A stretch of 41,448 nt of DNA from an uncultured Bacteroides sp. (GTDB lineage: Bacteria > Bacteroidota > Bacteroidia > Bacteroidales > JACABE01), in assembly GCA_964618755.1 (NCBI GenBank), contig CAZUCB010000004.1, forward strand, positions 1 to 41,448, in the 5' to 3' direction. The position numbers and the translations under genes are program-made. The notes under the pieces were generated by a model, which made no database searches, had not been told where the DNA came from, and saw only the letters and a list, made by a program, of their open reading frames with translations. Positions 1,046 to 13,130 of the stretch are shown piece after piece (position 1 is the first letter of the stretch; every line of letters begins with the position of its first letter).

Positions 1046-1522
1046 TTATTTGTATTCTGCAATAATAGCTTTTACACCATCAGGCGAAACACGTCCGTAA
1101 ACCTTTTCGCCAATAAGCACAACGGGAGCCAATCCGCAAGCACCTACACAACGCAAACAGCTTAAAGAGAATTTACCATCTTTTGAGGTTTCGCCAACCG
1201 CAATTTTCAATTCGCGTTTAAACTCTTCCAGTACTTTTTCGGCACCTCTTACATAGCAAGCCGTACCGGTACATACCGAAATAGGAAATTCGCCCTTGGG
1301 TATCATGGTAAAGAAAGAGTAAAACGTAACTACTCCATACACATGAGCAGTAGAAACATTTAATTCCCTAGCAATTATTTCCTGTACCTCGGCAGGCAGA
1401 TAACCGTACATGGTTTGGGTTTTGTGCAACACATTAATCAGTTCGCCGCCTTCGTTGTTGAAGGATTTGCAAATATCCTTTATCTTGTTTATTTTATCTT
1501 CTGATAATTTAATATTAACCAT
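1046..1522 (-). CDS. hydC: NuoE/HydC-type [2Fe-2S] subunit of the NAD(P)H-linked [FeFe]-hydrogenase
   Basis: Thioredoxin-like 2Fe-2S pattern: VTFYSFF, CTGTAC (Cx4C) and CLRCVGACGLAP (Cx3C). The track start at 1558 is a TTG overlapping hydA, so I prefer the ATG at 1522 (MVNIKLSEDK), which gives 158 aa. Confidence 0.85.
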   Translation of the reverse strand: MVNIKLSEDKINKIKDICKSFNNEGGELINVLHKTQTMYGYLPAEVQEIIARELNVSTAHVYGVVTFYSFFTMIPKGEFPISVCTGTACYVRGAEKVLEEFKRELKIAVGETSKDGKFSLSCLRCVGACGLAPVVLIGEKVYGRVSPDGVKAIIAEYK

Positions 1523-1547
1523 AACATTTATTTTTTTAAGATTGTTA

Positions 1548-3320
1548 TTACTCTTCAATAAATACTTCGTTGCTTTTGTCGAAATAGTGCGTATGCAATA
1601 AATGATGCGATTTTTCGCCGCAAGGTTTGCCTAAGAATTCATCGTAAAGTTTGATAATATCAGGATTTTCGTGCGATTTACGAATAGGTTTACCGGCGTC
1701 TTCGCGGTAAATAGAAGCAGCACGTTTTTTCAAAATTTCACTATTACCAAAGTTTAATGGTTGACCACCGCCACCGATGCATCCACCAGGGCAAGCCATA
1801 ATTTCGATAGCATGGAATTTAGAAATCCCGGCTCTAACGTCGTTCAACAATTTACGGGCATTACCCAAACCATGAGCAATACCGATATTAATTGGTAAAC
1901 CGTCAAAATCAATAGTAGCCGAACGAATACCGTCCATACCTCTTAGTTCGTTGAATTCAACTTTGTCAAGTTTTTTTCCGGTATGAACTTCGTAAGCAGT
2001 ACGACAAGCAGCTTCGATAACACCACCTGTATTCCCGAAAATAACAGCAGCACCAGTTGATTCGCCCATCGGATGATCGAAATCTTCATCAGGTAAATTC
2101 ATGAAATCAATATTGGCTTGTTTGATAAAATGAGCCAATTCGCGGGTTGATAATGAAAAGTCAACATCAGGATTGCCATCTACTTTAAACTCGTCGCGTT
2201 GACATTCGTATTTCTTAGCCAAACAAGGCATAATAGAAACCACTACCATATCTTTGCGGTTTACACCGATTTTGTCGGCAAAATAAGTTTTAGCAATAGC
2301 ACCAAACATTTGTTGAGGTGATTTAGCTGTAGATGGAATGTCTAACATATCTGAAAAATTATGTTCAAAAAAGTTAACCCAACCCGGACAGCAACTTGTT
2401 AAAATAGGTAATTTAACGGTTTTGTCACCAGCTAAGTGTTTTCCTAAACGACCCAATAATTCAGTCCCTTCTTCCATAATGGTTAAATCGGCTGCAAAAT
2501 CGGTATCAAATACATATTTGAAACCCAAACGACGCAAAGCAGCTGCCATTTTGCCTGTAACAGAAGTACCGGCTTCCATGCCAAATTCTTCGCCCAAAGC
2601 AGCACGAACAGCAGGAGCGGTTTGTACAATTACGGTTTTGGTTTTGTCAGATAAAGCTCTTATAACATTGCTGGTATGATCTACTTCGGTTAATGCACCT
2701 GTAGGACATACCGAAACACATTGACCACAATACGTACAAGGCGATTTTTCCAGATTCATTTCAAATGCAGGAGCAACTACAGAAGTAAATCCACGATTTA
2801 CAGCCGATAAAGCACCTACCGTTTGAACGTCATTACACATCATTTCGCAACGACGGCACATGATACATTTATCCACATCGCGAATAATAGAAGGAGAAGT
2901 ATCCACACGATAAGTTGATTTTTCGCCTTGGTAAGGAATTTCGCGGATGCCAAATTTCTGAGCCATTGTTTGTAATTCGCAGTTGCCCGATTTTGCACAA
3001 ATCAAGCAGTCGAACGGATGGTCAGAAAGCATAAGTTCTACAACAGTACGTCTTGTATTTAACACACGAATATTGTGAGTATCTACAACCATACCATCAA
3101 AAGCTTCGGTAGCGCAGGCAGGAGCAAGGTTTTTGCGACCTTCAATTTCCACAACACAAACGCGGCATCCACCGGGTTTGTTTTCAATTTTCATATCGCC
3201 CAATTCAAAATAACAAAGCGTAGGAATATCGATACCTACTTTTCTTGCTGCTTTCAAAACGGTGGTGCCTTTTTCTACTTCAACGATTTTATTATCTATT
3301 GTTAATTTAATCATTTCCAT
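1548..3320 (-). CDS. hydA: [FeFe]-hydrogenase catalytic subunit (multi-FeS, clostridial/bifurcating type), paralog 1
   Basis: All three canonical H-cluster motifs are present: L1 TSCCPGW, L2 MPCLAKKYE, L3 EIMACPGGCIGGGGQP. The N-terminus has a 2Fe-2S region (CRVCVVEI), a His-ligated cluster region (HPFDCLICAKSGNCELQ) and 2x CxxCxxCxxxCP. The C-terminal tail reads RKSHENP...HTHY. Confidence 0.95.
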   Translation of the reverse strand: MEMIKLTIDNKIVEVEKGTTVLKAARKVGIDIPTLCYFELGDMKIENKPGGCRVCVVEIEGRKNLAPACATEAFDGMVVDTHNIRVLNTRRTVVELMLSDHPFDCLICAKSGNCELQTMAQKFGIREIPYQGEKSTYRVDTSPSIIRDVDKCIMCRRCEMMCNDVQTVGALSAVNRGFTSVVAPAFEMNLEKSPCTYCGQCVSVCPTGALTEVDHTSNVIRALSDKTKTVIVQTAPAVRAALGEEFGMEAGTSVTGKMAAALRRLGFKYVFDTDFAADLTIMEEGTELLGRLGKHLAGDKTVKLPILTSCCPGWVNFFEHNFSDMLDIPSTAKSPQQMFGAIAKTYFADKIGVNRKDMVVVSIMPCLAKKYECQRDEFKVDGNPDVDFSLSTRELAHFIKQANIDFMNLPDEDFDHPMGESTGAAVIFGNTGGVIEAACRTAYEVHTGKKLDKVEFNELRGMDGIRSATIDFDGLPINIGIAHGLGNARKLLNDVRAGISKFHAIEIMACPGGCIGGGGQPLNFGNSEILKKRAASIYREDAGKPIRKSHENPDIIKLYDEFLGKPCGEKSHHLLHTHYFDKSNEVFIEE

Positions 3321-3340
3321 GTCTTGAATATATTTTTATA

Positions 3341-5134
3341 TTATTTTATACTAATTGCGTTAAATTTACATTTTTCCATACAAGCACCGCATTTGATACA
3401 AATATCTTGGTTAATGTAATGAGCTAGTTTTCTTTCACCGGTAATGGCATTTACAGGGCAATTGCGTGCACATGCAGTACAACCAACGCATTGTTCAGCA
3501 TCAATAATATATTGCATCAATGCTTTACATTGTCCCGAACGACATTTTTTCTCGTTGATGTGTTCTAAATACTCATCCCAAAAGTTATCTAAGGTAGAAA
3601 GTACAGGGTTTGGAGAAGTTTGACCTAAACCACACAATGAAGCATCTTTGATAACCTGGCTTAAATTTTTCAATTTGTCCAAATCAGCCATTGTACCTTT
3701 ACCTTGTGTAATAGTTTCCAGAATCTCATACAGACGTTTGTTACCAATACGACAAGGTGTACATTTACCGCAAGATTCTTCAACAGTAAAATCTAAATAG
3801 AATTTAGCAACAGAAACCATACAATCGTCTTCGTCCATTACAATCATTCCACCTGAGCCCATCATCGAACCAGCTGCAATTAAATTATCATAATCGATAG
3901 GAGTGTCAAGATGACGTTCTGTTAAGCAACCACCTGAAGGACCTCCTGTTTGTACTGCTTTAAATTTTTTACCATCTTTAATGCCACCACCAATTTCGTA
4001 TATAATTTCACGCAAAGTGATGCCCATCGGTACTTCAATTAAACCAACATTGTTGATTTTTCCGGCCAAAGCAAATACTTTTGTACCTTTTGATTTTTCA
4101 GTTCCAATGCTCGAAAACCATTCAGCACCTTTATTGATAATAACAGGAACACTTGCAAAAGTTTCTACATTGTTTACATTGGTTGGTTTTCCTAGATAAC
4201 CCGAAACAGAAGGGAAAGGAGGTTTAAATGTAGGTTCACCACGCATACCTTCCATTGAGTGAATTAATGCAGTTTCTTCACCACAAACAAAAGCACCGGC
4301 ACCGTAACGCAATTCGATATCAAAATCGAATCCACTGCCTAAAATATCTTTACCTAACAAACCATATTCTCTGGCCTGATCAATAGCAATTTTCAAACGA
4401 GTAATAGCCAAAGGATATTCAGCACGAATATATACCAAACCTTTGGTTCCGCCTATTGAATAACCACAAATAGCCATTGCTTCAATTACTGAATGAGGGT
4501 CACCTTCTAAGATAGAACGATCCATAAAAGCACCTGGGTCACCTTCGTCGGCATTACAAACTACATATTTTTGGTCAGCTTGCGATTTGCTGGTAATTTC
4601 CCATTTCAAACCAGTAGGGAATCCACCACCGCCACGACCACGTAAGCCTGATTTTTTTATGATATCAATGGTTTGTTGAGCATCCATTTCGGTAAGAACT
4701 TTACCCAATGCTTCATAACCATCGCGAGCGATATATTCATCTATATTTTCAGGATCAATAAAACCACAGTTTCTTAAAGCTATTCGAATTTGTTTTTTAT
4801 AAAATCCCATATGTTTTGAATCACTTACGTGTTCTTTGTTTTCAGGATCTTTGTACAACAATCGGGTAACTTTTCTACCTTTGATGATATGTTCTTCAAT
4901 AATTTCTCTTGCATCTCCGGGCTTTACTTCTGTATAAAAAGTATTGTCAGGCATCACTTTAACGATAGGACCTTTTTCGCAAAAACCAAAACAACCAGTC
5001 ATAACAACTTGTATCTCGTGATCCAATCCTTTTTCTATAAGGATTTCTTTTAGGTTGTCACCTACAGTTTTACTCAATGATGCATGGCAACCTGTACCTC
5101 CACATACAAGAAGATGCATTTTAAATTTTGCCAT
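3341..5134 (-). CDS. hydB: NuoF/HydB-type flavoprotein subunit, long form with extra FeS domains
   Basis: NADH/FMN site GLRGRGGGGFPTGLKWE and N3 cluster ESCGKCTPCRIG. An N-terminal thioredoxin-like 2Fe-2S domain is present (CGGTGCHAS...CFGFCEKGP). The C-terminus has 2x[4Fe-4S] (CVGCTACARNCP, CIKCGACMEKC). A strong SD, AAGGAGGAA, sits 7 nt upstream. Confidence 0.95.
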   Translation of the reverse strand: MAKFKMHLLVCGGTGCHASLSKTVGDNLKEILIEKGLDHEIQVVMTGCFGFCEKGPIVKVMPDNTFYTEVKPGDAREIIEEHIIKGRKVTRLLYKDPENKEHVSDSKHMGFYKKQIRIALRNCGFIDPENIDEYIARDGYEALGKVLTEMDAQQTIDIIKKSGLRGRGGGGFPTGLKWEITSKSQADQKYVVCNADEGDPGAFMDRSILEGDPHSVIEAMAICGYSIGGTKGLVYIRAEYPLAITRLKIAIDQAREYGLLGKDILGSGFDFDIELRYGAGAFVCGEETALIHSMEGMRGEPTFKPPFPSVSGYLGKPTNVNNVETFASVPVIINKGAEWFSSIGTEKSKGTKVFALAGKINNVGLIEVPMGITLREIIYEIGGGIKDGKKFKAVQTGGPSGGCLTERHLDTPIDYDNLIAAGSMMGSGGMIVMDEDDCMVSVAKFYLDFTVEESCGKCTPCRIGNKRLYEILETITQGKGTMADLDKLKNLSQVIKDASLCGLGQTSPNPVLSTLDNFWDEYLEHINEKKCRSGQCKALMQYIIDAEQCVGCTACARNCPVNAITGERKLAHYINQDICIKCGACMEKCKFNAISIK

Positions 5135-5156
5135 AATTTATTTCCTCCTTTTATTA

Positions 5157-5552
5157 TTATTTTTGAATACTTTCGTAATTTACAGGAATAATACCATCAA
5201 CCAACTCATTGTTTTTGATGTATTTTTCAATAATTTCGTTTGCTTTTTTCTCGTTCACATAGCCAAAAACAACTGGATCCTGATTGGGTAATGTTACTTC
5301 GATCGTAGGTTCAGCATAACAATAACCCATACAACCCGTTTGAGTAACAATAGCCTCGATGTTTCTTTTTTCAAGTTCATCAATAAAATATTCCATCACA
5401 GTTTTTGCTCCGGATGCAATACCACAAGTTGCCATAGCAACTCTAATCTGAACCAAACTCTCAGTATTATTGCCTTTTTCTCTAAGATTCAGTTTAGATT
5501 CAAGCCCTTCCTTCATCTTTCTGAGATCTGCCAAAGATTTTACTTTTGTCAT
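5157..5552 (-). CDS. small thioredoxin-like [2Fe-2S] ferredoxin subunit (HydD/HndB-like)
   Basis: 131 aa with ATCGIASGA and GCMGYCYAEP Cys pairs, and an AGGAGA SD 5 nt upstream. It occupies the position immediately before the NuoF-like gene, as in four-subunit hydrogenases. Confidence 0.8.
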   Translation of the reverse strand: MTKVKSLADLRKMKEGLESKLNLREKGNNTESLVQIRVAMATCGIASGAKTVMEYFIDELEKRNIEAIVTQTGCMGYCYAEPTIEVTLPNQDPVVFGYVNEKKANEIIEKYIKNNELVDGIIPVNYESIQK

Positions 5553-5576: not shown

Positions 5577-6125
5577 TTAGTTTGAATAATGTATTTCTGT
5601 TAAATTCTCTTTAATCATTTCTTTTAAATATCTGATTACTTGCGGTTGGTTAATACTCATGCCATCCATAGCTTCTTTTATTTCATCCGTATCAAAAATA
5701 TATTCACCTGTTTCAGTTGTATGGGTATATATAAAGTGTATGTTTTCGTTAGCTGCAACTGTTAGTACTATTACACCGGCAATATCACCTAACATTGGTC
5801 TGTCGAAGTTATTGTGCTGGAATATTGCTGTTAACACAGTTCCCTTGCCTAAGGTAGAATCAATTGTAAAACTTCCTCCGGCTCTTTCAGCGTTCTGCTT
5901 AAACAATGGAATTCCCAATCCAACCTTGCGTGTAGTACGTGAAGTACAATAAGAATCGGTTACATTTGCTAGCATTTCTTTTGTCATTCCTTTGCCATTG
6001 TCTTTGATACTTATACTGTATATATTGTCTGCCTTATTCTCAACAATCATTATTTCAATTAAATCAGCATTTGCTACTATTGAATTTTGAACGATGTCTA
6101 ATATGTGCAAAGATAATTCTTTCAT
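5577..6125 (-). CDS. stand-alone GHKL (HATPase_c) ATP-binding protein, no DHp/His domain
   Basis: N-box-like LHILDIVQNSIVANA, G1 DNGKGM, G2 GLGIPL, then GKGTVLTAIF, plus a C-terminal extension of about 80 aa. No H-box is present. Confidence 0.75.
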   Translation of the reverse strand: MKELSLHILDIVQNSIVANADLIEIMIVENKADNIYSISIKDNGKGMTKEMLANVTDSYCTSRTTRKVGLGIPLFKQNAERAGGSFTIDSTLGKGTVLTAIFQHNNFDRPMLGDIAGVIVLTVAANENIHFIYTHTTETGEYIFDTDEIKEAMDGMSINQPQVIRYLKEMIKENLTEIHYSN

Positions 6126-6152: not shown

Positions 6153-6887
6153 TTAATTTAATACTTTCCTGTTTTCTTTACCAGCCAATGCTTTCCTGAT
6201 TTCATCAAAAGAAACTTCTTCCATTTCAAATTGAGATGTAATTTCCCCAATACTATTAATAAAGTGCGAATCAGAATTTTGTAATATCGTAAAAGCATTT
6301 AAGTAAGTGTATTGTTTCAAAAACTCCAACTTTGTAATATGCTTTGTTATTTCAAAAGCATCTGCTTTAATATCTGGAGGAATAAATCCCAACTGACTTA
6401 TCAAACTGAATTTTGGGCGATTTACATGAGCCGGAATAAACAAGCCATTCAATTCATGTACTTTATCTGCTAATTCATCAATAGATATATTCAGTGCCGA
6501 ACTCAGCAATATTTCTTCTTCAGCTATAATATTTTCTTCCTCATCTACTATTAATTGATAGCCAAATCGTTTTATATCATTTTTAATTTTTGGTAAATGA
6601 GTTTCAATATATTGTTGAAAATCAAGTAATCTTTCATTATTTTCAAAGAACGTAAGGCAGTGTAATTCCTCTTTCGTTGTTATTTCTGCTCCACAAAGTA
6701 CAAAAATTCCATTTTTTTTACCAATTTCTCTGGTAACTTTGCATTGTTTTGTACTGTTATGGTCGGTTAAACCGATGATGTCAAGTTTTCTTTCTTTTGC
6801 TTTATTTATAATATTTATTGGGCTCATTTCCAAATCAGCACAAGGCGATAAAACGCTATGAATATGCAAATCAGCCCTGTAAATCAT
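6153..6887 (-). CDS. PHP-domain metal-dependent phosphoesterase
   Basis: ADLHIHSVLSPCA near the N-terminus, LTDHNS, and later AHVNRP and SDSH motifs typical of PHP (polymerase/histidinol-phosphatase) folds. Its start overlaps the upstream stop (TAATG at 6885-6889). Confidence 0.8.
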   Translation of the reverse strand: MIYRADLHIHSVLSPCADLEMSPINIINKAKERKLDIIGLTDHNSTKQCKVTREIGKKNGIFVLCGAEITTKEELHCLTFFENNERLLDFQQYIETHLPKIKNDIKRFGYQLIVDEEENIIAEEEILLSSALNISIDELADKVHELNGLFIPAHVNRPKFSLISQLGFIPPDIKADAFEITKHITKLEFLKQYTYLNAFTILQNSDSHFINSIGEITSQFEMEEVSFDEIRKALAGKENRKVLN

Positions 6888-7222
6888 TACTTTTTCAATA
6901 AGTTAAAAAGTTCTCCCGAAATTTCAAAAGCCTGTTTATTAGTTCCCAATACAGGGATATTTTCTTCATTGCTTTGAGCTGCCATGTCTTCTTCAGGTTT
7001 AAAACCTTTAACTAAAATAATTGCTGCCAATTCCTTAAGAGATGCAATTGCCATAACATTTTTATGAGTTTGCAATGTTATCCATGTACTTCCTGCTTCG
7101 GCACTTCCCATTACATCACTTAGTAAATCAGACGAATATCCATTTGTTATTTCATTTGAAAGACCTTTTTCTCCTGAAAAAATCTTTAAATCCAATGCTT
7201 TTACAATTTCTTCAACTTTCAT
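6887..7222 (-). CDS. DRTGG-like small domain protein (copy 2)
   Basis: 111 aa with SSDLLSDVMGS and AAIILVKGFKPEED segments, resembling the small DRTGG proteins I remember next to hydrogenase genes. It is a paralog of the 9002-9346 product. This is a family call from memory, not a search. Confidence 0.6.
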   Translation of the reverse strand: MKVEEIVKALDLKIFSGEKGLSNEITNGYSSDLLSDVMGSAEAGSTWITLQTHKNVMAIASLKELAAIILVKGFKPEEDMAAQSNEENIPVLGTNKQAFEISGELFNLLKK

Positions 7223-7226
7223 TTTC

Positions 7227-8579
7227 TTATTTTGTATTAAATTTATCGCCCCAAATACGTTTCATTTTTGCGATAGCTTCATTCATTGTCATACTTCCTT
7301 TTTGTTCCATAATACGCTGAATAAAAATACAATCAGTAATATCAGCTCTGCTCATTACAATGTCTTCGGCCAATGTTTGGCAGGTAGAAGCACCACACAT
7401 TCCGCAATCAGTTTTTGGTAAATACTCCATAATTTCATGCATCTTGCCCATCTTTTTGATAGCTTCCGACATATCTTCATCCAATTTTAGCATCGAACGT
7501 GGCATAATCTTGGAAACGTTCATGTTTTCAATCAGATATTTCTTGTAATTATTCAATTCTTTTGAAATACAGGATTCTTTTTTTTGATTTTCGTCAGTAG
7601 ATTTGGCTCTGTTTTTCATTCTTTCAACTGTTAGAAAGCGATTTCCACTGGTTAGCACGCCACCTGCACAACTTTCGTCGCAAGCTCTGAGTTCCAGAAA
7701 ATCTATATCTGAAATTTCTTCACTTTCTATCTTTTCCAAAAATTCTATAACATTGTGTATTTCATCAATAGCCAAAGCTCTGCCATCTGAAGTATCTCTT
7801 TCACCATTCGTTAAACTCCATAATATACCTTTTGAATCTAATTCATCTTTTTGAGGAACAGCACAGTAATCTTTTCCGTTTTGCTTGATACTTTTATATA
7901 TTTTATTGTAAATGAAATCAAGGTTAATGACCCCTGTAATAGTAGATTTTTCTTCACCAACTGGACTTTTTACTGCGGCTATCTTTGCTGCACAAGGTGT
8001 TATGTAGAATATACCAATTTCATTTTCCGTATAACCTTGTTCAGTAAGAAGTTTTTTATAGTATAAGGCTGCAATATCCAAAGGTGACTTTAATAAAATT
8101 AAATTATCAACCAAAGCAGGAAATTTAACTTGTATTAAACGTATAACTGCAGGGCAAAATGTTGAAATCAATGGTTTAATTGAAGGATTTTTTTTCTTAA
8201 AATCTTCACGGGCTTCCAACAAAAGATCAACAGTATGTTCTATTTCAAAAACATGAGTAAATCCAATTGCAATTAATTCGTTATAAATTTGTTGAGTTGA
8301 AATATTTTCCGGAAACTGTCCAATTAAAACACCTGGTACTAAAGCAATACGATAATTGTAATTAAAAATCTGCATAAAGTCATCGTGATCAACATAAATT
8401 GCATTTACCGGACAAACCCTGAAACACTCACCACAGTCAACACAACGGTTTTCAAACAAATGGGCCTTTCCATTTTTCACTCTAATAGCCTCTGTAGGGC
8501 ATACTTTAATACAGTGAGTACATCCTATGCAATTAGGCTCACTAATTTTTAAAGCATGGTGGAAATATTGTTTGTCCAT
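7227..8579 (-). CDS. H-cluster-domain-like FeS protein (putative sensory [FeFe]-hydrogenase homolog, no PAS domain)
   Basis: The N-terminus has 2x[4Fe-4S] (CIGCTHCIKVCP, CVDCGECFRVCP). The L motifs are degenerate: L1 STFCPAV, L2 ITPCAAK, L3 ELRACDESCAGG. The C-terminal motif CGMCGASTC-X16-C equals Cx2Cx4Cx16C (aa 392-417). Confidence 0.8.
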   Translation of the reverse strand: MDKQYFHHALKISEPNCIGCTHCIKVCPTEAIRVKNGKAHLFENRCVDCGECFRVCPVNAIYVDHDDFMQIFNYNYRIALVPGVLIGQFPENISTQQIYNELIAIGFTHVFEIEHTVDLLLEAREDFKKKNPSIKPLISTFCPAVIRLIQVKFPALVDNLILLKSPLDIAALYYKKLLTEQGYTENEIGIFYITPCAAKIAAVKSPVGEEKSTITGVINLDFIYNKIYKSIKQNGKDYCAVPQKDELDSKGILWSLTNGERDTSDGRALAIDEIHNVIEFLEKIESEEISDIDFLELRACDESCAGGVLTSGNRFLTVERMKNRAKSTDENQKKESCISKELNNYKKYLIENMNVSKIMPRSMLKLDEDMSEAIKKMGKMHEIMEYLPKTDCGMCGASTCQTLAEDIVMSRADITDCIFIQRIMEQKGSMTMNEAIAKMKRIWGDKFNTK

Positions 8580-8586
8580 TTTATTT

Positions 8587-9000
8587 TTAAGCTAATTTTA
8601 CCATTATTGTAACTTCTGTTCCAATACCAACTTCGCTTTTAATTTCTAATTTATCAGCATTTTTTTTTATATTTGGTAATCCCATTCCTGCACCAAATCC
8701 CATTTCTCTAACCTGATGGCTAGCAGTAGAGTAACCTTCTTTCATTGCCTGTGAAATATCTGGAATTCCTGGTCCAGTATCTTTTAATCGTAAAATTATT
8801 TTATCAGTATCAATATCAGCAAAAATTGTACCTCCAAAGGAGTGGGCAACAATATTAACTTCAGCTTCATACAAAGCGACAACGATTCGTTTAATTCTAA
8901 CAGAATCAACATTTAATTGCTTCAAAATTTTTTTTATCTGGCTTGAAGCAGTTCCTGCATTTGAGAAATCTCCACTAACGATTTTATATTCGAAATGCAT
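8587..9000 (-). CDS. RsbW/SpoIIAB-like GHKL Ser/Thr kinase-type protein (anti-sigma regulatory factor family)
   Basis: 137 aa with N box EAEVNIVAHS, G1 DTGPGIPD, G2 GFGAGMGLPN, then GTEVTI. It has no DHp domain. Confidence 0.75.
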   Translation of the reverse strand: MHFEYKIVSGDFSNAGTASSQIKKILKQLNVDSVRIKRIVVALYEAEVNIVAHSFGGTIFADIDTDKIILRLKDTGPGIPDISQAMKEGYSTASHQVREMGFGAGMGLPNIKKNADKLEIKSEVGIGTEVTIMVKLA

Positions 9001-9001
9001 T

Positions 9002-9346
9002 TTAATAAATTGGTTTTATACCATTATTGTAAAGAATTCCAGAAGTCTTAAACATTGAGTAATCACATTCTATTAATAAAATTCCATTTTCCTCAGCTAA
9101 ATCTTTCATTTCTGCAGTTACTTTCTTTCCTCTTACATAAATTATATTAATTATATCTGACATTTCTGCAGTTCTAATTGATTGAATATTTGATAAACCT
9201 GTAAGTAAAAGAACATTTTGAGCTTTAACCGTAAGAACATCGCTCATTAAATCCGATGAAAACGCAAACTCTACTTCATTTTCAAGCATTTTTTCGTTTC
9301 CGTAAGTTTTTGCGTTTAGTAGTGTTTTAATATCTTTAATTCTCAT
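9002..9346 (-). CDS. DRTGG-like small domain protein (copy 1)
   Basis: SSDLMSDVL, LLLTGLSN and IIYVRGKK segments parallel the 6887-7222 product. The track start at 9388 is a TTG that overlaps the predicted -7 box, so I prefer the ATG at 9346 (MRIKDIK). Confidence 0.6.
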   Translation of the reverse strand: MRIKDIKTLLNAKTYGNEKMLENEVEFAFSSDLMSDVLTVKAQNVLLLTGLSNIQSIRTAEMSDIINIIYVRGKKVTAEMKDLAEENGILLIECDYSMFKTSGILYNNGIKPIY

Positions 9347-9385
9347 TTTAGAAAGGATTAACCTAAAAAATAATATTTTCGGCTG

Positions 9386-9393
9386 CAAAATTA
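9386..9393 (-). promoter_or_regulatory. Bacteroidota-type -7 promoter box TAATTTTG for hydrogenase operon 1
   Basis: The plus strand reads CAAAATTA, which is minus-strand TAATTTTG and matches the TAnnTTTG consensus. It lies 40 nt upstream of the ATG at 9346. Confidence 0.4.
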
Positions 9394-9560: not shown

Positions 9561-11351
9561 TTAGTACCTTTTTCTTGGTTTATAATGGGTATGTAACAAA
9601 TCATGTGATTTATGTCCTAAAGGTTCACCAAGAAAATCCTTGTAAATCTGAGCAACTTCTGGGTTTTCATGTGATTTTCTTAGAGGTAAGCCTTCATCTT
9701 CAGAATAAATTGCAGTAGCACGTTTTTGACGAATTTCAGGACTTGTTGGAATTGGTTGTCCTCCTCCGCCCAAGCATCCACCAGGGCATCCCATAATTTC
9801 AATGAAATGGTAGTTAGCTTTGCCTGATCTGATTGCTTTCATTAATTCATTTGCATTGTGTAAGCCATGAGCAATAGCAACACTTAGTTCAGCTCCTTCT
9901 AGAAATCCCCATTCTGGCTTAACATCTTTAATCATTATTTTGGCTTCTTTTATGCCTTCAAAACCTCTTACGGGCATAATTTTAAGATTGGTAAATGGAA
10001 CCTCACGTCCAGTAACTATTTCATAAGCAGTACGCAATGCGGCTTCCATAACACCTCCAGTAGCTCCGAAAATTACAGCAGCTCCAGTAGAATTACCCAT
10101 AATGCTGTCGTATTTTTCATCATCTAATTTCATGAAATCAATACCGGCTTGTTTAACCATCATTGCTAATTCACGAGTAGTTAAAACATAATCAACATCT
10201 TGATAACCACTGTCTCGCATTTCTGGTCTTACACATTCGAATTTTTTAGCAGTACAAGGCATAATAGAAACAGAGACCATGTTTTTTGCATCTATACCTT
10301 TTTTCTTTGCATAATATGTTTTCGCCAGTGCACCAAACATTTGTTGTGGTGATTTACAAGTTGATAAATTTTCTAATAAATCTGGAAACATGTGTTCTTG
10401 AAATTTTATCCAACCTGGAGAACAAGAAGTCATCATTGGTAAAGCTACTTTTTCTCCATCAACTAATGCTCTTTTTAAGCGGGTTAAAAGCTCTGTTCCT
10501 TCTTCCATAATTGTTAAATCTGCAGTAAAATCGGTGTCTAATACAGAATCGAAACCAATATGTCTTAACGCAGCTACCATTTTACCTGTAACTCTTTCAC
10601 CTGGTTCATATCCTAAGTCTTCACCCAAACCTATTCTAACAGCTGGTGCAGTTTGTACAACAACATGTTTTGAAGGGTCGTTAATTGCATTCCAAACTTC
10701 ATCTAAATAAGTTCTTTCTGTTAATGATCCAGTTGGGCAACGATTGATACATTGACCACAATTTGTACAAACTACTTCATCCAACGGTTTATTCATAAAA
10801 GTAGAAATCCTTTGATGGTCGCCTTTTTTTACAACTGCTAATGCACTAACTGCTTGTAATTCCTCACAGGTTCTAACACAACGTTGACAACGAATACATT
10901 TGCTGTCATCTTTTGAAATGGAAGGAGAAGAAATGTCAATAATTTTATCTTTCGCTTTTACCAAGTCAATGAAAATATGATCACCAATACGATACTCAGA
11001 AGCAAGTTCTTGTAATTCGCAATTACCATTTTTAAAACATTTGGTGCAATCAGCATTGTGTTCCGATAATAGTAATTCAATGACATGTTTACGTGCTGTT
11101 CTAACTTTTTCACTATTGGTAAAAACTTCCATACCTTCTGAAACTGGAGTGGCACAAGAAGCAGCTAATAATCTTGCACCTTTAACTTCAACTACACATA
11201 CGCGACAGTTTCCTGCTACACTTAAATCAGGGTGATTACAAAGTGTTGGTATATTGAAATTAAGCTTTTTAGCTGCATCAAGAATGGTGGTTCCTTCTTT
11301 AACGGATACCACTATATTATTGATTTTTAGATTTACTAAATATTCGCTCAT
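9561..11351 (-). CDS. hydA: [FeFe]-hydrogenase catalytic subunit, paralog 2, with atypical L1 motif
   Basis: Same domain order as paralog 1. L2 MPCTAKKFE and L3 EIMGCPGGCLGGGGQP are canonical. L1 reads TSCSPGW instead of TSCCPGW. Confidence 0.95.
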   Translation of the reverse strand: MSEYLVNLKINNIVVSVKEGTTILDAAKKLNFNIPTLCNHPDLSVAGNCRVCVVEVKGARLLAASCATPVSEGMEVFTNSEKVRTARKHVIELLLSEHNADCTKCFKNGNCELQELASEYRIGDHIFIDLVKAKDKIIDISSPSISKDDSKCIRCQRCVRTCEELQAVSALAVVKKGDHQRISTFMNKPLDEVVCTNCGQCINRCPTGSLTERTYLDEVWNAINDPSKHVVVQTAPAVRIGLGEDLGYEPGERVTGKMVAALRHIGFDSVLDTDFTADLTIMEEGTELLTRLKRALVDGEKVALPMMTSCSPGWIKFQEHMFPDLLENLSTCKSPQQMFGALAKTYYAKKKGIDAKNMVSVSIMPCTAKKFECVRPEMRDSGYQDVDYVLTTRELAMMVKQAGIDFMKLDDEKYDSIMGNSTGAAVIFGATGGVMEAALRTAYEIVTGREVPFTNLKIMPVRGFEGIKEAKIMIKDVKPEWGFLEGAELSVAIAHGLHNANELMKAIRSGKANYHFIEIMGCPGGCLGGGGQPIPTSPEIRQKRATAIYSEDEGLPLRKSHENPEVAQIYKDFLGEPLGHKSHDLLHTHYKPRKRY

Positions 11352-11383
11352 TTTATTATTTTTTTAATGTTATCAAATAAATA

Positions 11384-12553
11384 TTAATAGATGATTTCTT
11401 CTCTGAAGTTATCAACAATAGAATTAAAGGGATTAGCAACTGATTGTCCCAAACCACATTTTGCTGAAACTTTCATGGTGCTTGCTAATTTTTTCAACTC
11501 ATCAAGATACTGAGGTTTTCTTTCTCCTTTTTTTACAGCTTCCATTCCTCTTAGTAATTGTTGACATCCAATTCGACAAGGTGAACATTGTCCACACGAT
11601 TCTTCATTAAAGAATTCAAGATAATCATGTAAAACATTATACATTGATCGCGAACTATTGAAAATCATCATAGAACCACCTGTTGGGATACCTTCAAATC
11701 CAATAATTGTATCTTTAAATTGTTTTCTAGGTACACAATGTCCAGAAGCACCTCCAACTTGAACAGCCTTGGTATCACCGTCACCAAAATCTTCAACAAA
11801 ATCAGCCAAAGGCATGCCTAATTCTAATTCATAAATACCAGGGGTAGGAGTGTCACCAGAAACAGAAAATACTTTACTACCTCTTGAGTCTTTAGTTCCT
11901 AATTCTTTAAACCTTTCAACACCCATTTTGCAAATCATGGTCACATAAACCAATGTTTCTACATTATTTATAACAGTAGGTTTACTATTGTATCCAGAAA
12001 CGGCTGGATATGGAGGTTTGTTTCTTGGTTCTCCACGTTTTCCTTCCATTGATTCGAACAAAGCACTTTCTTCACCGCAAATATAAGCTCCACTTCCAGA
12101 TTTAATATAAATCGCAAACTCAATGTTTTTTGATTTAAGCTGTTTATTAAATTCGTCAATAATTTTATTTAGTTGAGGAAGTAAATAATTGTATTCACCT
12201 CTAAGGTAAATATAACCTTCTTTTGCTCCAATTGCATAGCCACAAATTGTCATACCGCCTAATACTTTGCAAGCAACAGTTTCAAGAATTTCTCTATCTT
12301 TAAAAGTGCCAGGTTCTCCTTCATCTGCATTACAAATTACATATTTTACAGGATTGTCTTCATTTTTGGTAAATTTCCACTTTAATCCTGTAGGGAATCC
12401 TGCACCACCTCTTCCTTTTAGCCCAGAATCTATTACATCTAAAATAATATCGTCAGGAGATTTCGTAAAAGTTTTGGTAATTACATCCATTACTTCATTT
12501 ACAGTGCATTCCTGAAATATATAATCAACTTTCTTTAAGATTTTATTTTCCAT
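11384..12553 (-). CDS. NuoF-like flavoprotein subunit, short form (core only)
   Basis: GLKGRGGAGFPTGLKWKF and ESCGQCSPCRIG are present. At 389 aa versus 597 aa for the paralog, it has neither the N-terminal 2Fe-2S domain nor the C-terminal CxxCxxCxxxCP ferredoxin motifs. Confidence 0.9.
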   Translation of the reverse strand: MENKILKKVDYIFQECTVNEVMDVITKTFTKSPDDIILDVIDSGLKGRGGAGFPTGLKWKFTKNEDNPVKYVICNADEGEPGTFKDREILETVACKVLGGMTICGYAIGAKEGYIYLRGEYNYLLPQLNKIIDEFNKQLKSKNIEFAIYIKSGSGAYICGEESALFESMEGKRGEPRNKPPYPAVSGYNSKPTVINNVETLVYVTMICKMGVERFKELGTKDSRGSKVFSVSGDTPTPGIYELELGMPLADFVEDFGDGDTKAVQVGGASGHCVPRKQFKDTIIGFEGIPTGGSMMIFNSSRSMYNVLHDYLEFFNEESCGQCSPCRIGCQQLLRGMEAVKKGERKPQYLDELKKLASTMKVSAKCGLGQSVANPFNSIVDNFREEIIY

Positions 12554-12590
12554 TTTTCTTTATTGTTTGAATTTTAAAACTAATTCTTAA

Positions 12591-13061
12591 TTATTTAGAA
12601 GCTTTTGCATAGCTTTCAATAACTTCTAATGCCTTATCTGTAGTAAGTTCTGGGAATACTACATCATTTACCAGCATTACAGGACCTTTATGACACCAGC
12701 CTAAGCAATTTGCTGTAAGTAATGTAAACTTTTTGTCGTGAGTTGTTTCTCCGACTTTAATTTTTAAGGTATTTTCCATTGCTTCAATAATTTCATCTTT
12801 ACCTTTCATGTGGCATGAAATTGTTTTGCAAATTCTAATAATATTCTTGCCTCGAGGTTCTGTATCAAGAAAAGTGTAAAAAGAAGCTGTTCCAAATACT
12901 TCAGCTGCTGATAGGTCTAATTCTCTTGCTACTGTAATCATAGCTTCTTCGGAAAGAAATCTTTCTTCTTTTACAATACCTTGTAAAACAGGCATCAAAC
13001 TGTTTCTTGTTTTGCCATGTTTTTCAACTAAGTTCTTTACTAATGTTTCAATATCGGACAT
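12591..13061 (-). CDS. NuoE-like [2Fe-2S] subunit, paralog 2
   Basis: SFYTFL, CKTISC (Cx4C) and CLGWCHKGP (Cx3C). The second in-frame ATG at 13061 (MSDIETL) has GGAGGA 5 nt upstream. That SD is formed by the codons of the track's earlier start at 13073. Confidence 0.85.
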   Translation of the reverse strand: MSDIETLVKNLVEKHGKTRNSLMPVLQGIVKEERFLSEEAMITVARELDLSAAEVFGTASFYTFLDTEPRGKNIIRICKTISCHMKGKDEIIEAMENTLKIKVGETTHDKKFTLLTANCLGWCHKGPVMLVNDVVFPELTTDKALEVIESYAKASK

Positions 13062-13130
13062 GTTATCCTCCAAATTTTTGTTAATATGATTGATTAATTC
13101 TACTGTTATTTTTATAACAATTTAAAAGTT

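What the first reader, a model, noticed from the sequence alone, without database searches (positions are those of the whole stretch)
7227..8579. H-cluster-like protein keeps the four cluster-ligand cysteines but lacks the proton-relay and Met residues, and carries a Cx2Cx4Cx16C cluster without a PAS domain
Seen in sequence, aligning by eye to the two catalytic paralogs in this window:
- L1 is STFCPAV (canonical TSCCPGW). The relay Cys position is Phe and the ligand Cys is kept.
- L2 is ITPCAAKIAA (canonical MPCxxKxxE). The Met is replaced by Thr, the Lys is kept and the Glu is lost.
- L3 is ELRACDESCAGG (canonical ExMxCxxGCxxGG). The Met is replaced by Arg and both Cys are kept.
- The C-terminus has CGMCGASTC-X16-C (aa 392-417, nt 7329-7406).
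- Only about 70 aa separate L3 from that motif, which is too short for a PAS domain.

Established knowledge (from memory): putative sensory group C [FeFe]-hydrogenases such as HydS lack the proton-transfer Cys and the Met residues near the H-cluster. They carry a C-terminal Cx2Cx4Cx16C [4Fe-4S] motif, usually together with a PAS domain.

Inference: this is a minimal, PAS-less sensory-type homolog. Its signal would have to be relayed through the neighbouring DRTGG and GHKL proteins.
Basis: partly seen in the sequence, partly recalled or inferred. Interest (0 to 1): 0.7.

Follow-up and report, generated by a model that had tools for sequence, protein, structure and literature searches.

The report
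PAS-less sensory-type [FeFe]-hydrogenase (Group D)
The gene encodes an ordinary member of an already described class of probable hydrogen-sensing [FeFe]-hydrogenases (subclass M2e, "Group D"), sitting in its usual place beside small kinase-type regulators and an electron-bifurcating hydrogenase in a Bacteroidales genome.

Summary
ORF 7227-8579(-) encodes a 450-aa protein with two N-terminal [4Fe-4S] motifs, an H-domain and a C-terminal Cx2Cx4Cx16C cluster. The H-domain keeps all four H-cluster cysteines and Lys358. It replaces Cys299 (Phe141), Met353 (Thr194), Met497 (Arg298) and Glu361 (Ala202). No PAS domain is present.

The class is not new. It is the M2e subclass, "Group D", probably HydDB Group C1. 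It was named in 2010-2012 as a PAS-less sensory hydrogenase lying next to protein kinases and bifurcating HydABC. Its model enzyme, TamHydS, was studied biochemically in 2019-2026.

The window protein is 39% identical to TamHydS over its full length. It carries the Group-D-specific proton-path residues (E260, E296, T257, D272) and the conserved acidic residues around the C-terminal cluster. Published Group D lists already include Bacteroidota. At least 572 GTDB species genomes encode close relatives.

One piece of my evidence I did not find in the literature. The sensor sits in a cassette conserved across phyla: DRTGG, SpoIIAB-like kinase, HydS, DRTGG, PHP. Natural HydS-DRTGG and kinase-HydS fusions exist.

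Verdict: new member of a known kind, low interest.

The parts
7227..8579 (-). HydS-type Group D (M2e) putative sensory [FeFe]-hydrogenase, 450 aa
   Evidence: Pfam Fer4x2 + Fe_hyd_lg_C + PF04060. 39% identity to TamHydS over its full length. AF2 pLDDT 86.8. Foldseek top hits are [FeFe]-hydrogenases, TMq 0.57-0.66 among the listed hits.
8412..8531 (-). N-terminal F-domain with two [4Fe-4S] motifs (C17,C20,C23,C27 / C46,C49,C52,C56)
   Evidence: All eight Cys are invariant in 36 homologs.
8145..8165 (-). L1 STFCPAV: Phe141 replaces the proton-relay Cys299; Cys142 is the ligand Cys300
   Evidence: F141 and C142 are invariant in the Bacteroidota clade.
7974..8003 (-). L2 ITPCAAKIAA: Thr194 at the Met353 position, Cys196, Lys199, Ala202 at the Glu361 position
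   Evidence: Ser/Thr at the M353 position is the published M2e hallmark (PMC8163306).
7659..7694 (-). L3 ELRACDESCAGG: Glu296 (TamHydS E289), Arg298 at the Met497 position, Cys300, Cys304
7329..7406 (-). C-terminal Cx2Cx4Cx16C [4Fe-4S] motif (C392,C395,C400,C417), with D391, E405, D406 and D416
   Evidence: PF04060 E 5.8e-12. The acidic residues match the Group-D-conserved D378/E392/D393/D403 of TamHydS (PMC13104023).
8587..9000 (-). SpoIIAB/RsbW-like GHKL serine-kinase-type protein, 137 aa, 7 nt upstream of hydS
   Evidence: HATPase_c_2 / HATPase_c. TIGR01925 anti-sigma F factor E 4.6e-16, below cutoff. N-, G1- and G2-box residues are conserved in 84 orthologs. The gene lies directly upstream of HydS in 80/80 Bacteroidales loci and in 7/7 sampled distant relatives.
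9002..9388 (-). DRTGG-like small protein A (ORF from TTG 9388; more likely starts at ATG 9346, giving 114 aa)
   Evidence: 29% identity to the downstream DRTGG protein, E 3e-14. Pfam DRTGG E 0.017. Synteny is conserved.
6887..7222 (-). DRTGG-domain small protein B, 111 aa, 4 nt downstream of hydS
   Evidence: Pfam DRTGG and Hpr_kinase_N. The SSDLLSDV motif is conserved. It is found fused to the HydS C-terminus in 6 cluster representatives.
6153..6887 (-). PHP-family phosphoesterase, 244 aa
   Evidence: Pfam PHP and PHP_C. Metal-binding HxH, DH, E, H and DxH positions are conserved. It is syntenic in Bacteroidales and in 5/7 distant contexts.
5577..6125 (-). Second GHKL ATPase (HATPase_c / HATPase_c_3), 182 aa, with no HisKA domain
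   Evidence: Conserved position inside the hyd operon.
1046..5552 (-). Bifurcating-type HydABC set downstream: 2Fe-2S ferredoxin-like protein (5157-5552), HydB/NuoF-like (3341-5134), HydA (1548-3320), HydC/NuoE-like (1046-1558)
   Evidence: Pfam and NCBIfam. HydA passes the NF040763 'NADH-dependent [FeFe] hydrogenase, group A6' cutoff.
9561..13073 (-). Second HydABC-type set upstream: NuoE-like (12591-13073), short NuoF-like (11384-12553), HydA paralog with TSCSPGW (9561-11351)
   Evidence: It is present upstream in most, not all, related loci.

Best explanation
The ORF encodes a Group D (M2e; probably HydDB Group C1) HydS-type [FeFe]-hydrogenase.

Proposed mechanism, in order:
1. The protein binds a normal H-cluster through C142, C196, C300 and C304, with K199 contacting the cofactor.
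2. It lacks the group A proton relay. It uses the Group D alternative path instead (E260 -> E296 -> T257 -> D272). It should therefore react with H2 slowly and hold reduced H-cluster states, acting as a detector rather than a bulk catalyst.
3. Its state is read by the co-transcribed small proteins: a SpoIIAB-like serine-kinase-type GHKL protein, two DRTGG-domain paralogs and a PHP phosphoesterase. These would act as a partner-switching or phospho-relay module.
4. The module tunes the adjacent electron-bifurcating HydABC hydrogenase according to H2 pressure.

Shown here: domain architecture, residue identities, homology to TamHydS, synteny and gene fusions.
Taken from the literature on TamHydS: cofactor binding, slow turnover, H2-induced structural change.
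Inferred: that this protein senses H2, that the kinase, DRTGG and PHP proteins transmit the signal, and what the output is.
For: Domain architecture:
- Fer4x2 + H-domain + PF04060, with no PAS domain.
- The AF2 model is confident (pLDDT 86.8, pTM 0.85). The linker at aa 310-390 is helical and the tail after C417 is only 33 aa.
- Foldseek top hits are all [FeFe]-hydrogenases.

Homology to TamHydS:
- I rebuilt TamHydS from the SI of PMC13104023. It is 435 aa and every residue number cited in the papers checks out.
- It aligns end to end with the window protein at 39% identity.
- A137->F141, S at the M353 position->T194, L291->R298, E252->E260, E289->E296, S249->T257, D265->D272, D378/E392/D393/D403->D391/E405/D406/D416, R30->R33, K35->K38.
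- E252 and D265 are described as specific to Group D, not conserved in Groups A-C (PMC10407848).

Family size and variation:
- 325 clusters at 50% identity match with E<=1e-30.
- None of the 17 longest of the 150 nearest representatives has a PAS domain.
- NJ tree: the window protein lies in a clade with the F/Y-T/A-E-R/K signature, inside the radiation that also holds TamHydS. The window's group A paralogs serve as outgroup.

Context:
- The order DRTGG-like, HATPase137, HydS, DRTGG, PHP, HATPase182, Fdx, HydB, HydA, HydC holds in all 80 related loci as far as each contig reaches.
- The kinase gene is directly upstream of HydS in 7/7 sampled distant relatives. DRTGG is upstream in 6/7. A DRTGG-like gene plus PHP is downstream in 5/7.

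Gene fusions among the nearest representatives:
- 6 HydS-DRTGG fusions (C-terminal).
- 2 DRTGG-HydS fusions (N-terminal).
- 1 HATPase-HydS fusion.

Literature:
- M2e / Group D is classed as sensory from kinase and HydABC proximity (PMC3561251, PMC8163306).
- TamHydS binds [2Fe]adt, has low activity and high H2 affinity, and changes secondary structure on H2 exposure (PMC8163306, PMC13104023).
Against: - No experiment shows a sensory role for any Group D enzyme. TamHydS is catalytically competent.
- The TamHydS C-terminal cluster is not reduced by H2, which argues against a redox relay through it (PMC13104023).
- No sigma factor or DNA-binding regulator is encoded nearby, so the output of the proposed relay is unknown.
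- Phe at the Cys299 position is bulkier than the Ala of the characterised enzymes. I could not inspect model coordinates to check that the [2Fe] pocket stays open.
- Whether the DRTGG proteins are phosphorylated is untested.
- I did not run a formal HydDB classification or a maximum-likelihood tree with curated Group C references.
- HydEFG maturases are not in the ORFs scanned, which cover about 1-24 kb of the window. The ORFs beyond about 24 kb were not scanned.
Confidence: 0.8

Rival explanations
1. It is a working, low-rate catalytic hydrogenase. It would be a fourth redox module or alternative H2 site serving HydABC or ferredoxin, not a sensor. The neighbouring kinase-like genes would regulate it rather than being regulated by it.
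For: - TamHydS evolves and oxidises H2 (PMC8163306, PMC10407848).
- The N-terminal 2x[4Fe-4S] domain is a normal electron wire.
- A metabolic role for Group C1 enzymes clustered with bifurcation subunits has been raised (PMC8542988).
- The gene is in the same transcription direction as HydABC, with intergenic gaps of only a few bases to its immediate neighbours.
Against: - Loss of the whole group A proton pathway and very low rates in the model enzyme (PMC8163306).
- The five-gene cassette also occurs without any hydrogenase nearby (L081, L087) and next to Rnf (L089). This fits a regulator better than a subunit.
- Fusions are to DRTGG and kinase domains, not to redox subunits.
Confidence: 0.12
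2. It is an H-cluster-less Fe-S protein, like Nar1/NARF, or a redox sensor that reads ferredoxin/NADH poise. It would keep a [4Fe-4S] cluster at the H-site but bind no [2Fe] subcluster. The bulky Phe141 and Arg298 would fill the pocket.
For: - Phe at the Cys299 position and Arg at the Met497 position are invariant in this Bacteroidota clade. Both differ from the Ala and Leu of the only characterised Group D enzyme.
- No HydEFG genes among the window ORFs scanned.
Against: - All four H-cluster Cys, Lys199 (K358) and the Group D proton-path residues E260/E296/D272 are invariant. That is hard to explain without a [2Fe] site that exchanges protons.
- Phe is the third most common residue at this position across the family (20 of 129 representatives). 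It is a regular variant, not a sign of decay.
- The genome encodes two HydA enzymes that need the maturases anyway.
Confidence: 0.06

Closest known systems
TamHydS, the Group D (M2e) putative sensory [FeFe]-hydrogenase of Thermoanaerobacter mathranii (PMC8163306, PMC10407848, PMC13104023)
   Same: - Same three-part architecture: 2x[4Fe-4S], H-domain, Cx2Cx4Cx16C. No PAS domain.
- 39% identity over the full length.
- Hydroxyl residue at the M353 position.
- Group D proton path E/E/(S,T)/D.
- Acidic residues beside the C-terminal cluster.
- Encoded upstream of a bifurcating HydABC and next to a histidine-kinase-like ATPase.
   Different: - Phe141 instead of Ala137 at the Cys299 position.
- Arg298 instead of Leu at the Met497 position.
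- Ile61 instead of Lys58.
- 15 aa longer.
- Bacteroidales host rather than a thermophilic Firmicute.
- No AraC-type regulator found among the neighbouring ORFs scanned.
Group C (M2f) HydS: Thermotoga maritima TmHydS, Ruminococcus albus HydS, Thermoanaerobacterium HfsB
   Same: - Loss of Cys299 and of both Met residues.
- The same C-terminal Cx2Cx4Cx16C cluster.
- Proposed H2 sensing that controls other hydrogenases.
   Different: - Group C carries a PAS domain after the cluster motif and pairs with PP2C phosphatase and Ser/Thr kinase genes (PMC5707799, PMC11837493).
- The window protein has only a 33-aa tail. It pairs with DRTGG, SpoIIAB-like and PHP genes and carries the Group-D-only E252/D265 equivalents.
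HydDB [FeFe] Group C1 ('histidine-kinase-linked' putative sensory hydrogenases; Greening 2016 and Sondergaard 2016, as cited in PMC6163223 and PMC8542988)
   Same: Monomeric, directly downstream of a histidine-kinase-domain gene, and sometimes clustered with bifurcating hydrogenase or Rnf genes. This matches the pattern.
   Different: I could not run the HydDB classifier. That 'Group D' equals Group C1 is my inference from the descriptions.
SpoIIAB/SpoIIAA/SpoIIE and RsbW/RsbV/RsbU partner-switching modules
   Same: A small GHKL serine-kinase-type protein with intact ATP-binding boxes, small partner proteins encoded beside it, and a phosphoesterase in the same operon.
   Different: - The partners are DRTGG domains, not STAS.
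- The phosphoesterase is PHP, not PP2C.
- No sigma factor is nearby.
- Phosphorylation is untested.
- This is a resemblance in how it may work, not membership. The TIGR01925 score of 59 bits is below the cutoff of 135.

Membership tests
[FeFe]-hydrogenase H-domain proteins | Four H-cluster ligand cysteines (C300, C355, C499, C503 in CpI) within the L1, L2 and L3 motifs | tested here: met
   C142, C196, C300 and C304 align to them. Pfam Fe_hyd_lg_C E 5.7e-24. Foldseek matches to CpI, DdH and CbA5H have probability 1.00.
[FeFe]-hydrogenase H-domain proteins | Binds the [2Fe] subcluster and reacts with H2 | not testable with these tools
   This needs in vitro maturation with [2Fe]adt plus FTIR/EPR. 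It has been shown only for the homolog TamHydS (PMC8163306).
Group D / M2e putative sensory [FeFe]-hydrogenase | Architecture: N-terminal 2x[4Fe-4S], H-domain, C-terminal Cx2Cx4Cx16C, and no PAS domain | tested here: met
   AF2 shows only helices after L3 and a 33-aa tail.
Group D / M2e putative sensory [FeFe]-hydrogenase | Group A proton relay absent (C299 not Cys) and M353 replaced by Ser or Thr | tested here: met
   F141 and T194. Across 129 representatives the M353 position is T in 59 and S in 50.
Group D / M2e putative sensory [FeFe]-hydrogenase | Group-D-specific alternative proton path (TamHydS E252, E289, S249, D265) | tested here: met
   E260, E296, T257 and D272. All four are invariant in 36 Bacteroidota homologs.
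Group D / M2e putative sensory [FeFe]-hydrogenase | Phylogenetic placement with Group D rather than Groups A, B or C | tested here: inconclusive
   The NJ tree places it in the same radiation as TamHydS, with the window's group A paralogs as outgroup. No curated Group B or C references were available, deep branches are poorly resolved, and HydDB could not be run.
Group D / M2e putative sensory [FeFe]-hydrogenase | Encoded beside a protein kinase-type gene and a bifurcating HydABC | tested here: met
Group C / M2f HydS | PAS domain C-terminal to the Cx2Cx4Cx16C motif | tested here: not met
   There is no PAS hit at E<=10 on aa 314-450. Only 33 residues follow C417.
SpoIIAB-type partner-switching module (for the neighbours) | Kinase phosphorylates a STAS partner, a PP2C phosphatase reverses it, and a sigma factor is the output | tested here: not met
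   The partners are DRTGG and the phosphoesterase is PHP. No sigma factor lies among the neighbouring ORFs scanned. Only the kinase fold and ATP-binding boxes match.

The most novel reading that the evidence does not exclude
The missing signal path of Group D H2 sensors is a dedicated five-gene cassette that can move between operons: DRTGG, SpoIIAB-like kinase, HydS, DRTGG, PHP phosphoesterase.
- HydS would dock the DRTGG proteins and the kinase. Natural fusions of HydS to each of them support this.
- An invariant serine in the conserved [SA]DL[ML]SD[VA] motif of the DRTGG proteins would be phosphorylated.
- The PHP enzyme would reset it.
- The cassette can be attached to different redox machines (HydABC, Rnf).

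This would be a non-STAS, non-PP2C version of partner switching. In the searchable literature I found no description of the DRTGG or PHP components with hydrogenases.
Probability: 0.3. Interest if true: 0.55.

Novelty: new member of a known kind. Interest (0 to 1): 0.2.

Why it matters
For this protein the value is mainly correct annotation. Databases label it '4Fe-4S binding protein', 'RnfB' or 'hydrogenase large subunit C-terminal domain-containing protein'. It is in fact a Group D HydS-type putative H2 sensor, widespread in Bacteroidales of anoxic sediments, digesters and guts.

The Bacteroidales clade offers natural variants at two second-sphere positions that enzymologists have been mutating: Phe or Tyr at the Cys299 position, and Arg or Lys at the Met497 position.

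The more useful lead concerns signalling. The TamHydS papers state that how Group D enzymes signal without a PAS domain is an open question. The conserved DRTGG, kinase and PHP neighbours, and their fusions to HydS, name concrete binding partners to test.

Tried and rejected
- PAS or another output domain inside the protein: rejected (Pfam at E<=10; AF2 secondary structure).
- Nar1/NARF-like or unrelated Fe-S protein: rejected. The full-length alignment to TamHydS conserves the Group D marker residues, and the fold matches hydrogenases.
- Long-tailed relatives are PAS-bearing Group C enzymes: rejected. Their extensions are DRTGG or HATPase domains.
- Phe141 is a unique oddity: rejected. Phe is the third most common residue at that position (20 of 129 representatives). 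The peptide pattern FCPA[IV][VI]RLI, together with RACD[EQ][SG]CAG, found relatives in at least 572 GTDB species genomes.
- PDB sequence search: only group A hydrogenases and ferredoxins. No Group C or D structure exists.
- NCBIfam: no specific model exists for this protein or for the DRTGG or PHP neighbours. All hits are below cutoff.
- Matching hits to the accessions in the published Group D list: no overlap among the ten clusters examined.
- Greening 2016 could not be read because it is not held.
- Model coordinates are not exposed, so the [2Fe] pocket around Phe141 could not be inspected.
Full report
**What is in the sequence**

ORF 7227-8579 on the minus strand encodes 450 aa. Pfam finds three parts:
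- a 2x[4Fe-4S] ferredoxin domain at aa 11-62;
- the [FeFe]-hydrogenase H-domain at aa 90-307 (PF02906, E 5.7e-24);
- PF04060 'putative Fe-S cluster' at aa 387-419 (E 5.8e-12).

- STFCPAV (aa 139-145);
- ITPCAAKIAA (aa 193-202);
- ELRACDESCAGG (aa 296-307);
- C392-x2-C395-x4-C400-x16-C417 (nt 7329-7406).

I aligned the protein with the window's two group A paralogs and with TamHydS. The mapping onto CpI residues is:
- Phe141 at the Cys299 position;
- Cys142 at the Cys300 position;
- Thr194, Cys196, Lys199 and Ala202 on Met353, Cys355, Lys358 and Glu361;
- Arg298, Cys300 and Cys304 on Met497, Cys499 and Cys503.

First, the gap between L3 and the cluster motif is about 85-88 aa, not about 70.

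Second, in Group C enzymes the PAS domain follows the Cx2Cx4Cx16C motif; it does not precede it (PMC8163306, PMC13104023). The segment to examine is therefore the tail after Cys417. That tail is 33 aa. Pfam on aa 314-450 at E<=10 returns only PF04060. The AlphaFold2 model (pLDDT 86.8, pTM 0.85) shows only helices from aa 314 to the end. No PAS domain is present.

**What it is**

The literature search shows this is a described class.
- Carere et al. 2012 (PMC3561251) list 'D M2e' monomeric sensory hydrogenases, for example TTE0887, Cthe_0335 and Athe_1292. [quoted passage not shown]
- Land et al. 2020 (PMC8163306) characterised TamHydS from Thermoanaerobacter mathranii as the first M2e / Group D enzyme. 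They describe the same architecture, the lost Cys299 and proton pathway, Ser/Thr at the Met353 position as an M2e hallmark, and a variable Met497 position.
- Cabotaje et al. 2023 (PMC10407848) defined a Group-D-specific proton path: E252, E289, S249, D265.
- Schumann et al. 2026 (PMC13104023) studied the C-terminal cluster. They list 70 Group D members, including Bacteroidota: Parabacteroides, Odoribacter, Alkaliflexus, Anaerophaga, Marinilabilia and Proteiniphilum.

I rebuilt the TamHydS protein from the coding sequence in that paper's supplement. It is 435 aa, and all residue numbers cited in the papers check out. The window protein aligns to it end to end at 39% identity. Conserved positions:
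- the Group D proton path (E260, E296, T257, D272);
- the acidic residues flanking the C-terminal cluster (D391, E405, D406, D416);
- the N-terminal R33 and K38.

Foldseek against the PDB returns only [FeFe]-hydrogenases. No Group C or D structure has been solved.

In HydDB terms the description fits Group C1, 'histidine-kinase-linked' (PMC6163223, PMC8542988). I could not run that classifier.

**How common it is**

- A scan of one genome per GTDB species found at least 572 species genomes encoding relatives. The best 80 were all from Bacteroidota, nearly all labelled Bacteroidales. The best match was 91% identical.
- The large protein database holds 3,968 hits at E<=1e-10. The closest is 90% identical.
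- An exhaustive search of cluster representatives at 50% identity gave 325 clusters at E<=1e-30.

Among 129 near-full-length representatives, residue counts are:

| Position (CpI or TamHydS) | Counts |
|---|---|
| Cys299 | Ala 40, Ser 24, Phe 20, Thr 14, Tyr 5 |
| Met353 | Thr 59, Ser 50 |
| Met497 | Arg 31, Leu 17 |
| TamHydS E252 | Glu 93, Gln 16 |

Phe141, Thr194 and Arg298 are thus regular variants. In 36 Bacteroidota homologs F141 and R298 are invariant and T194 is conserved in at least 90%. Together they mark a clade with the F/Y-T/A-E-R/K signature in a neighbour-joining tree. That clade has not been studied biochemically. I found no published comment on Phe at this position.

**Surroundings**

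The gene is tightly packed between small genes, with a gap of 7 nt upstream and 4 nt downstream. The minus-strand order is:
1. a second HydABC-type set: NuoE-like 12591-13073, short NuoF-like 11384-12553, HydA 9561-11351;
2. a 114-128-aa protein (9002-9388). Pfam misses it at default thresholds, but it is a DRTGG-like paralog of the downstream DRTGG protein (29% identity, E 3e-14);
3. a 137-aa SpoIIAB/RsbW-like GHKL protein (8587-9000);
4. HydS;
5. a 111-aa DRTGG protein (6887-7222);
6. a 244-aa PHP phosphoesterase (6153-6887);
7. a 182-aa GHKL ATPase (5577-6125);
8. a 2Fe-2S ferredoxin-like protein, then HydB, HydA and HydC.

This order is kept in all 80 related loci as far as each contig reaches.

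I also sampled seven distant cluster representatives from outside this clade.
- The kinase gene is directly upstream of HydS in 7/7.
- A DRTGG gene lies upstream of the kinase in 6/7.
- A DRTGG-like gene plus PHP follows in 5/7.
- What lies beyond varies: HydABC, an Rnf operon (L089) or unrelated genes.

Among the 150 nearest representatives I found nine fusions:
- six proteins with DRTGG fused to the HydS C-terminus;
- two with DRTGG fused to the N-terminus;
- one with the HATPase domain fused to the N-terminus.

None of the 17 longest representatives has a PAS domain.

Further points on the neighbours:
- The kinase keeps its N, G1 and G2 ATP-binding boxes.
- The PHP protein keeps its metal-binding His, Asp and Glu positions.
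- Both DRTGG paralogs, their distant orthologs and four of the fused tails share a [SA]DL[ML]SD[VA] motif.
- No sigma factor or DNA-binding regulator is encoded among the neighbouring ORFs scanned.

**Most likely mechanism**

The protein most likely binds a standard H-cluster, reacts slowly with H2, and holds reduced states. This is shown for TamHydS and inferred here. It would report H2 pressure by changing its contacts with the co-encoded DRTGG proteins and the small kinase, and the PHP enzyme would reverse the signal. The result would adjust the neighbouring bifurcating hydrogenase.

The synteny and fusions are shown. The phospho-relay, its direction and its output are inferred. For TamHydS the C-terminal cluster does not change redox state under H2 (PMC13104023), so a conformational signal is more likely than a redox signal.

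Rivals:
- a slow catalytic subunit (about 0.12);
- an H-cluster-less Fe-S or redox sensor (about 0.06). This is disfavoured because the cofactor-contacting and proton-path residues are invariant.

**Novelty and score**

The class, its PAS-less architecture, its active-site substitutions and the kinase-relay idea are all published. This protein is a new, uncharacterised member from Bacteroidales.

The part I could not find in the literature is the involvement of DRTGG and PHP proteins and the fusions. A search for 'DRTGG' with 'hydrogenase' gave two irrelevant papers. That is a testable lead on an open question, not a discovery.

Interest is 0.2. The novel reading has a probability of about 0.3 and would merit about 0.55 if true.

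Noticed in passing
window 9561-11351 (-), L1 motif: The upstream HydA paralog (596 aa) has TSCSPGW instead of TSCCPGW, so the second Cys (the [4Fe-4S]H ligand Cys300 of CpI) is Ser. The L2 and L3 motifs are intact, and the protein passes the NCBIfam group A6 cutoff. About 50 HydA-type ORFs in the related loci, presumably its orthologs, carry the same TSCSP motif, while the other HydA-type ORFs keep TSCCP. The only mention I found is a remark on Melainabacteria hydrogenases (PMC3787301).
   Followed up: partly
window 9002-9388 (-): An ORF with no Pfam hit at default thresholds is a second DRTGG-like paralog (29% identity to 6887-7222, E 3e-14). The TTG start at 9388 is probably wrong. ATG at 9346 gives a 114-aa protein that matches its paralog from residue 1.
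   Followed up: yes
P0136, P0148, P0203, P0221, P0225, P0234 (C-terminal); P0205, P0230 (N-terminal); P0161 (N-terminal HATPase): Natural fusions of HydS-type proteins to DRTGG or to the SpoIIAB-like HATPase domain occur among the nearest cluster representatives. Some DRTGG hits fall just below Pfam's gathering score.
   Followed up: partly
L089:4796-13200; L081:7161-9261; L087:5137-8443: The DRTGG, kinase, HydS, DRTGG, PHP cassette also occurs directly upstream of an rnfCDGEAB operon (L089, where the kinase carries CBS domains). It also occurs with no hydrogenase or Rnf genes nearby (L081, L087).
   Followed up: partly
window 6887-7222 and 9002-9346 (-); L081-L089: A short motif, [SA]DL[ML]SD[VA] (SSDLLSDV / SSDLMSDV in the window), is conserved in both DRTGG paralogs across phyla and in four of the fused tails. 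It is a candidate phosphorylation or ligand-binding site. Its function is unknown.
   Followed up: partly
window 11384-12553 (-) versus 3341-5134 (-): The two NuoF-like HydB paralogs differ in architecture. The 389-aa one lacks the N-terminal thioredoxin-like 2Fe-2S domain and the C-terminal 2x[4Fe-4S] domain that the 597-aa one has. The two HydABC sets may therefore differ in their electron paths.
   Followed up: no
database names for homologs: Close homologs are annotated inconsistently, as '4Fe-4S binding protein', 'RnfB' or '[Fe-Fe] hydrogenase large subunit C-terminal domain-containing protein'. No NCBIfam model exists for Group C/D HydS-type proteins.
   Followed up: no
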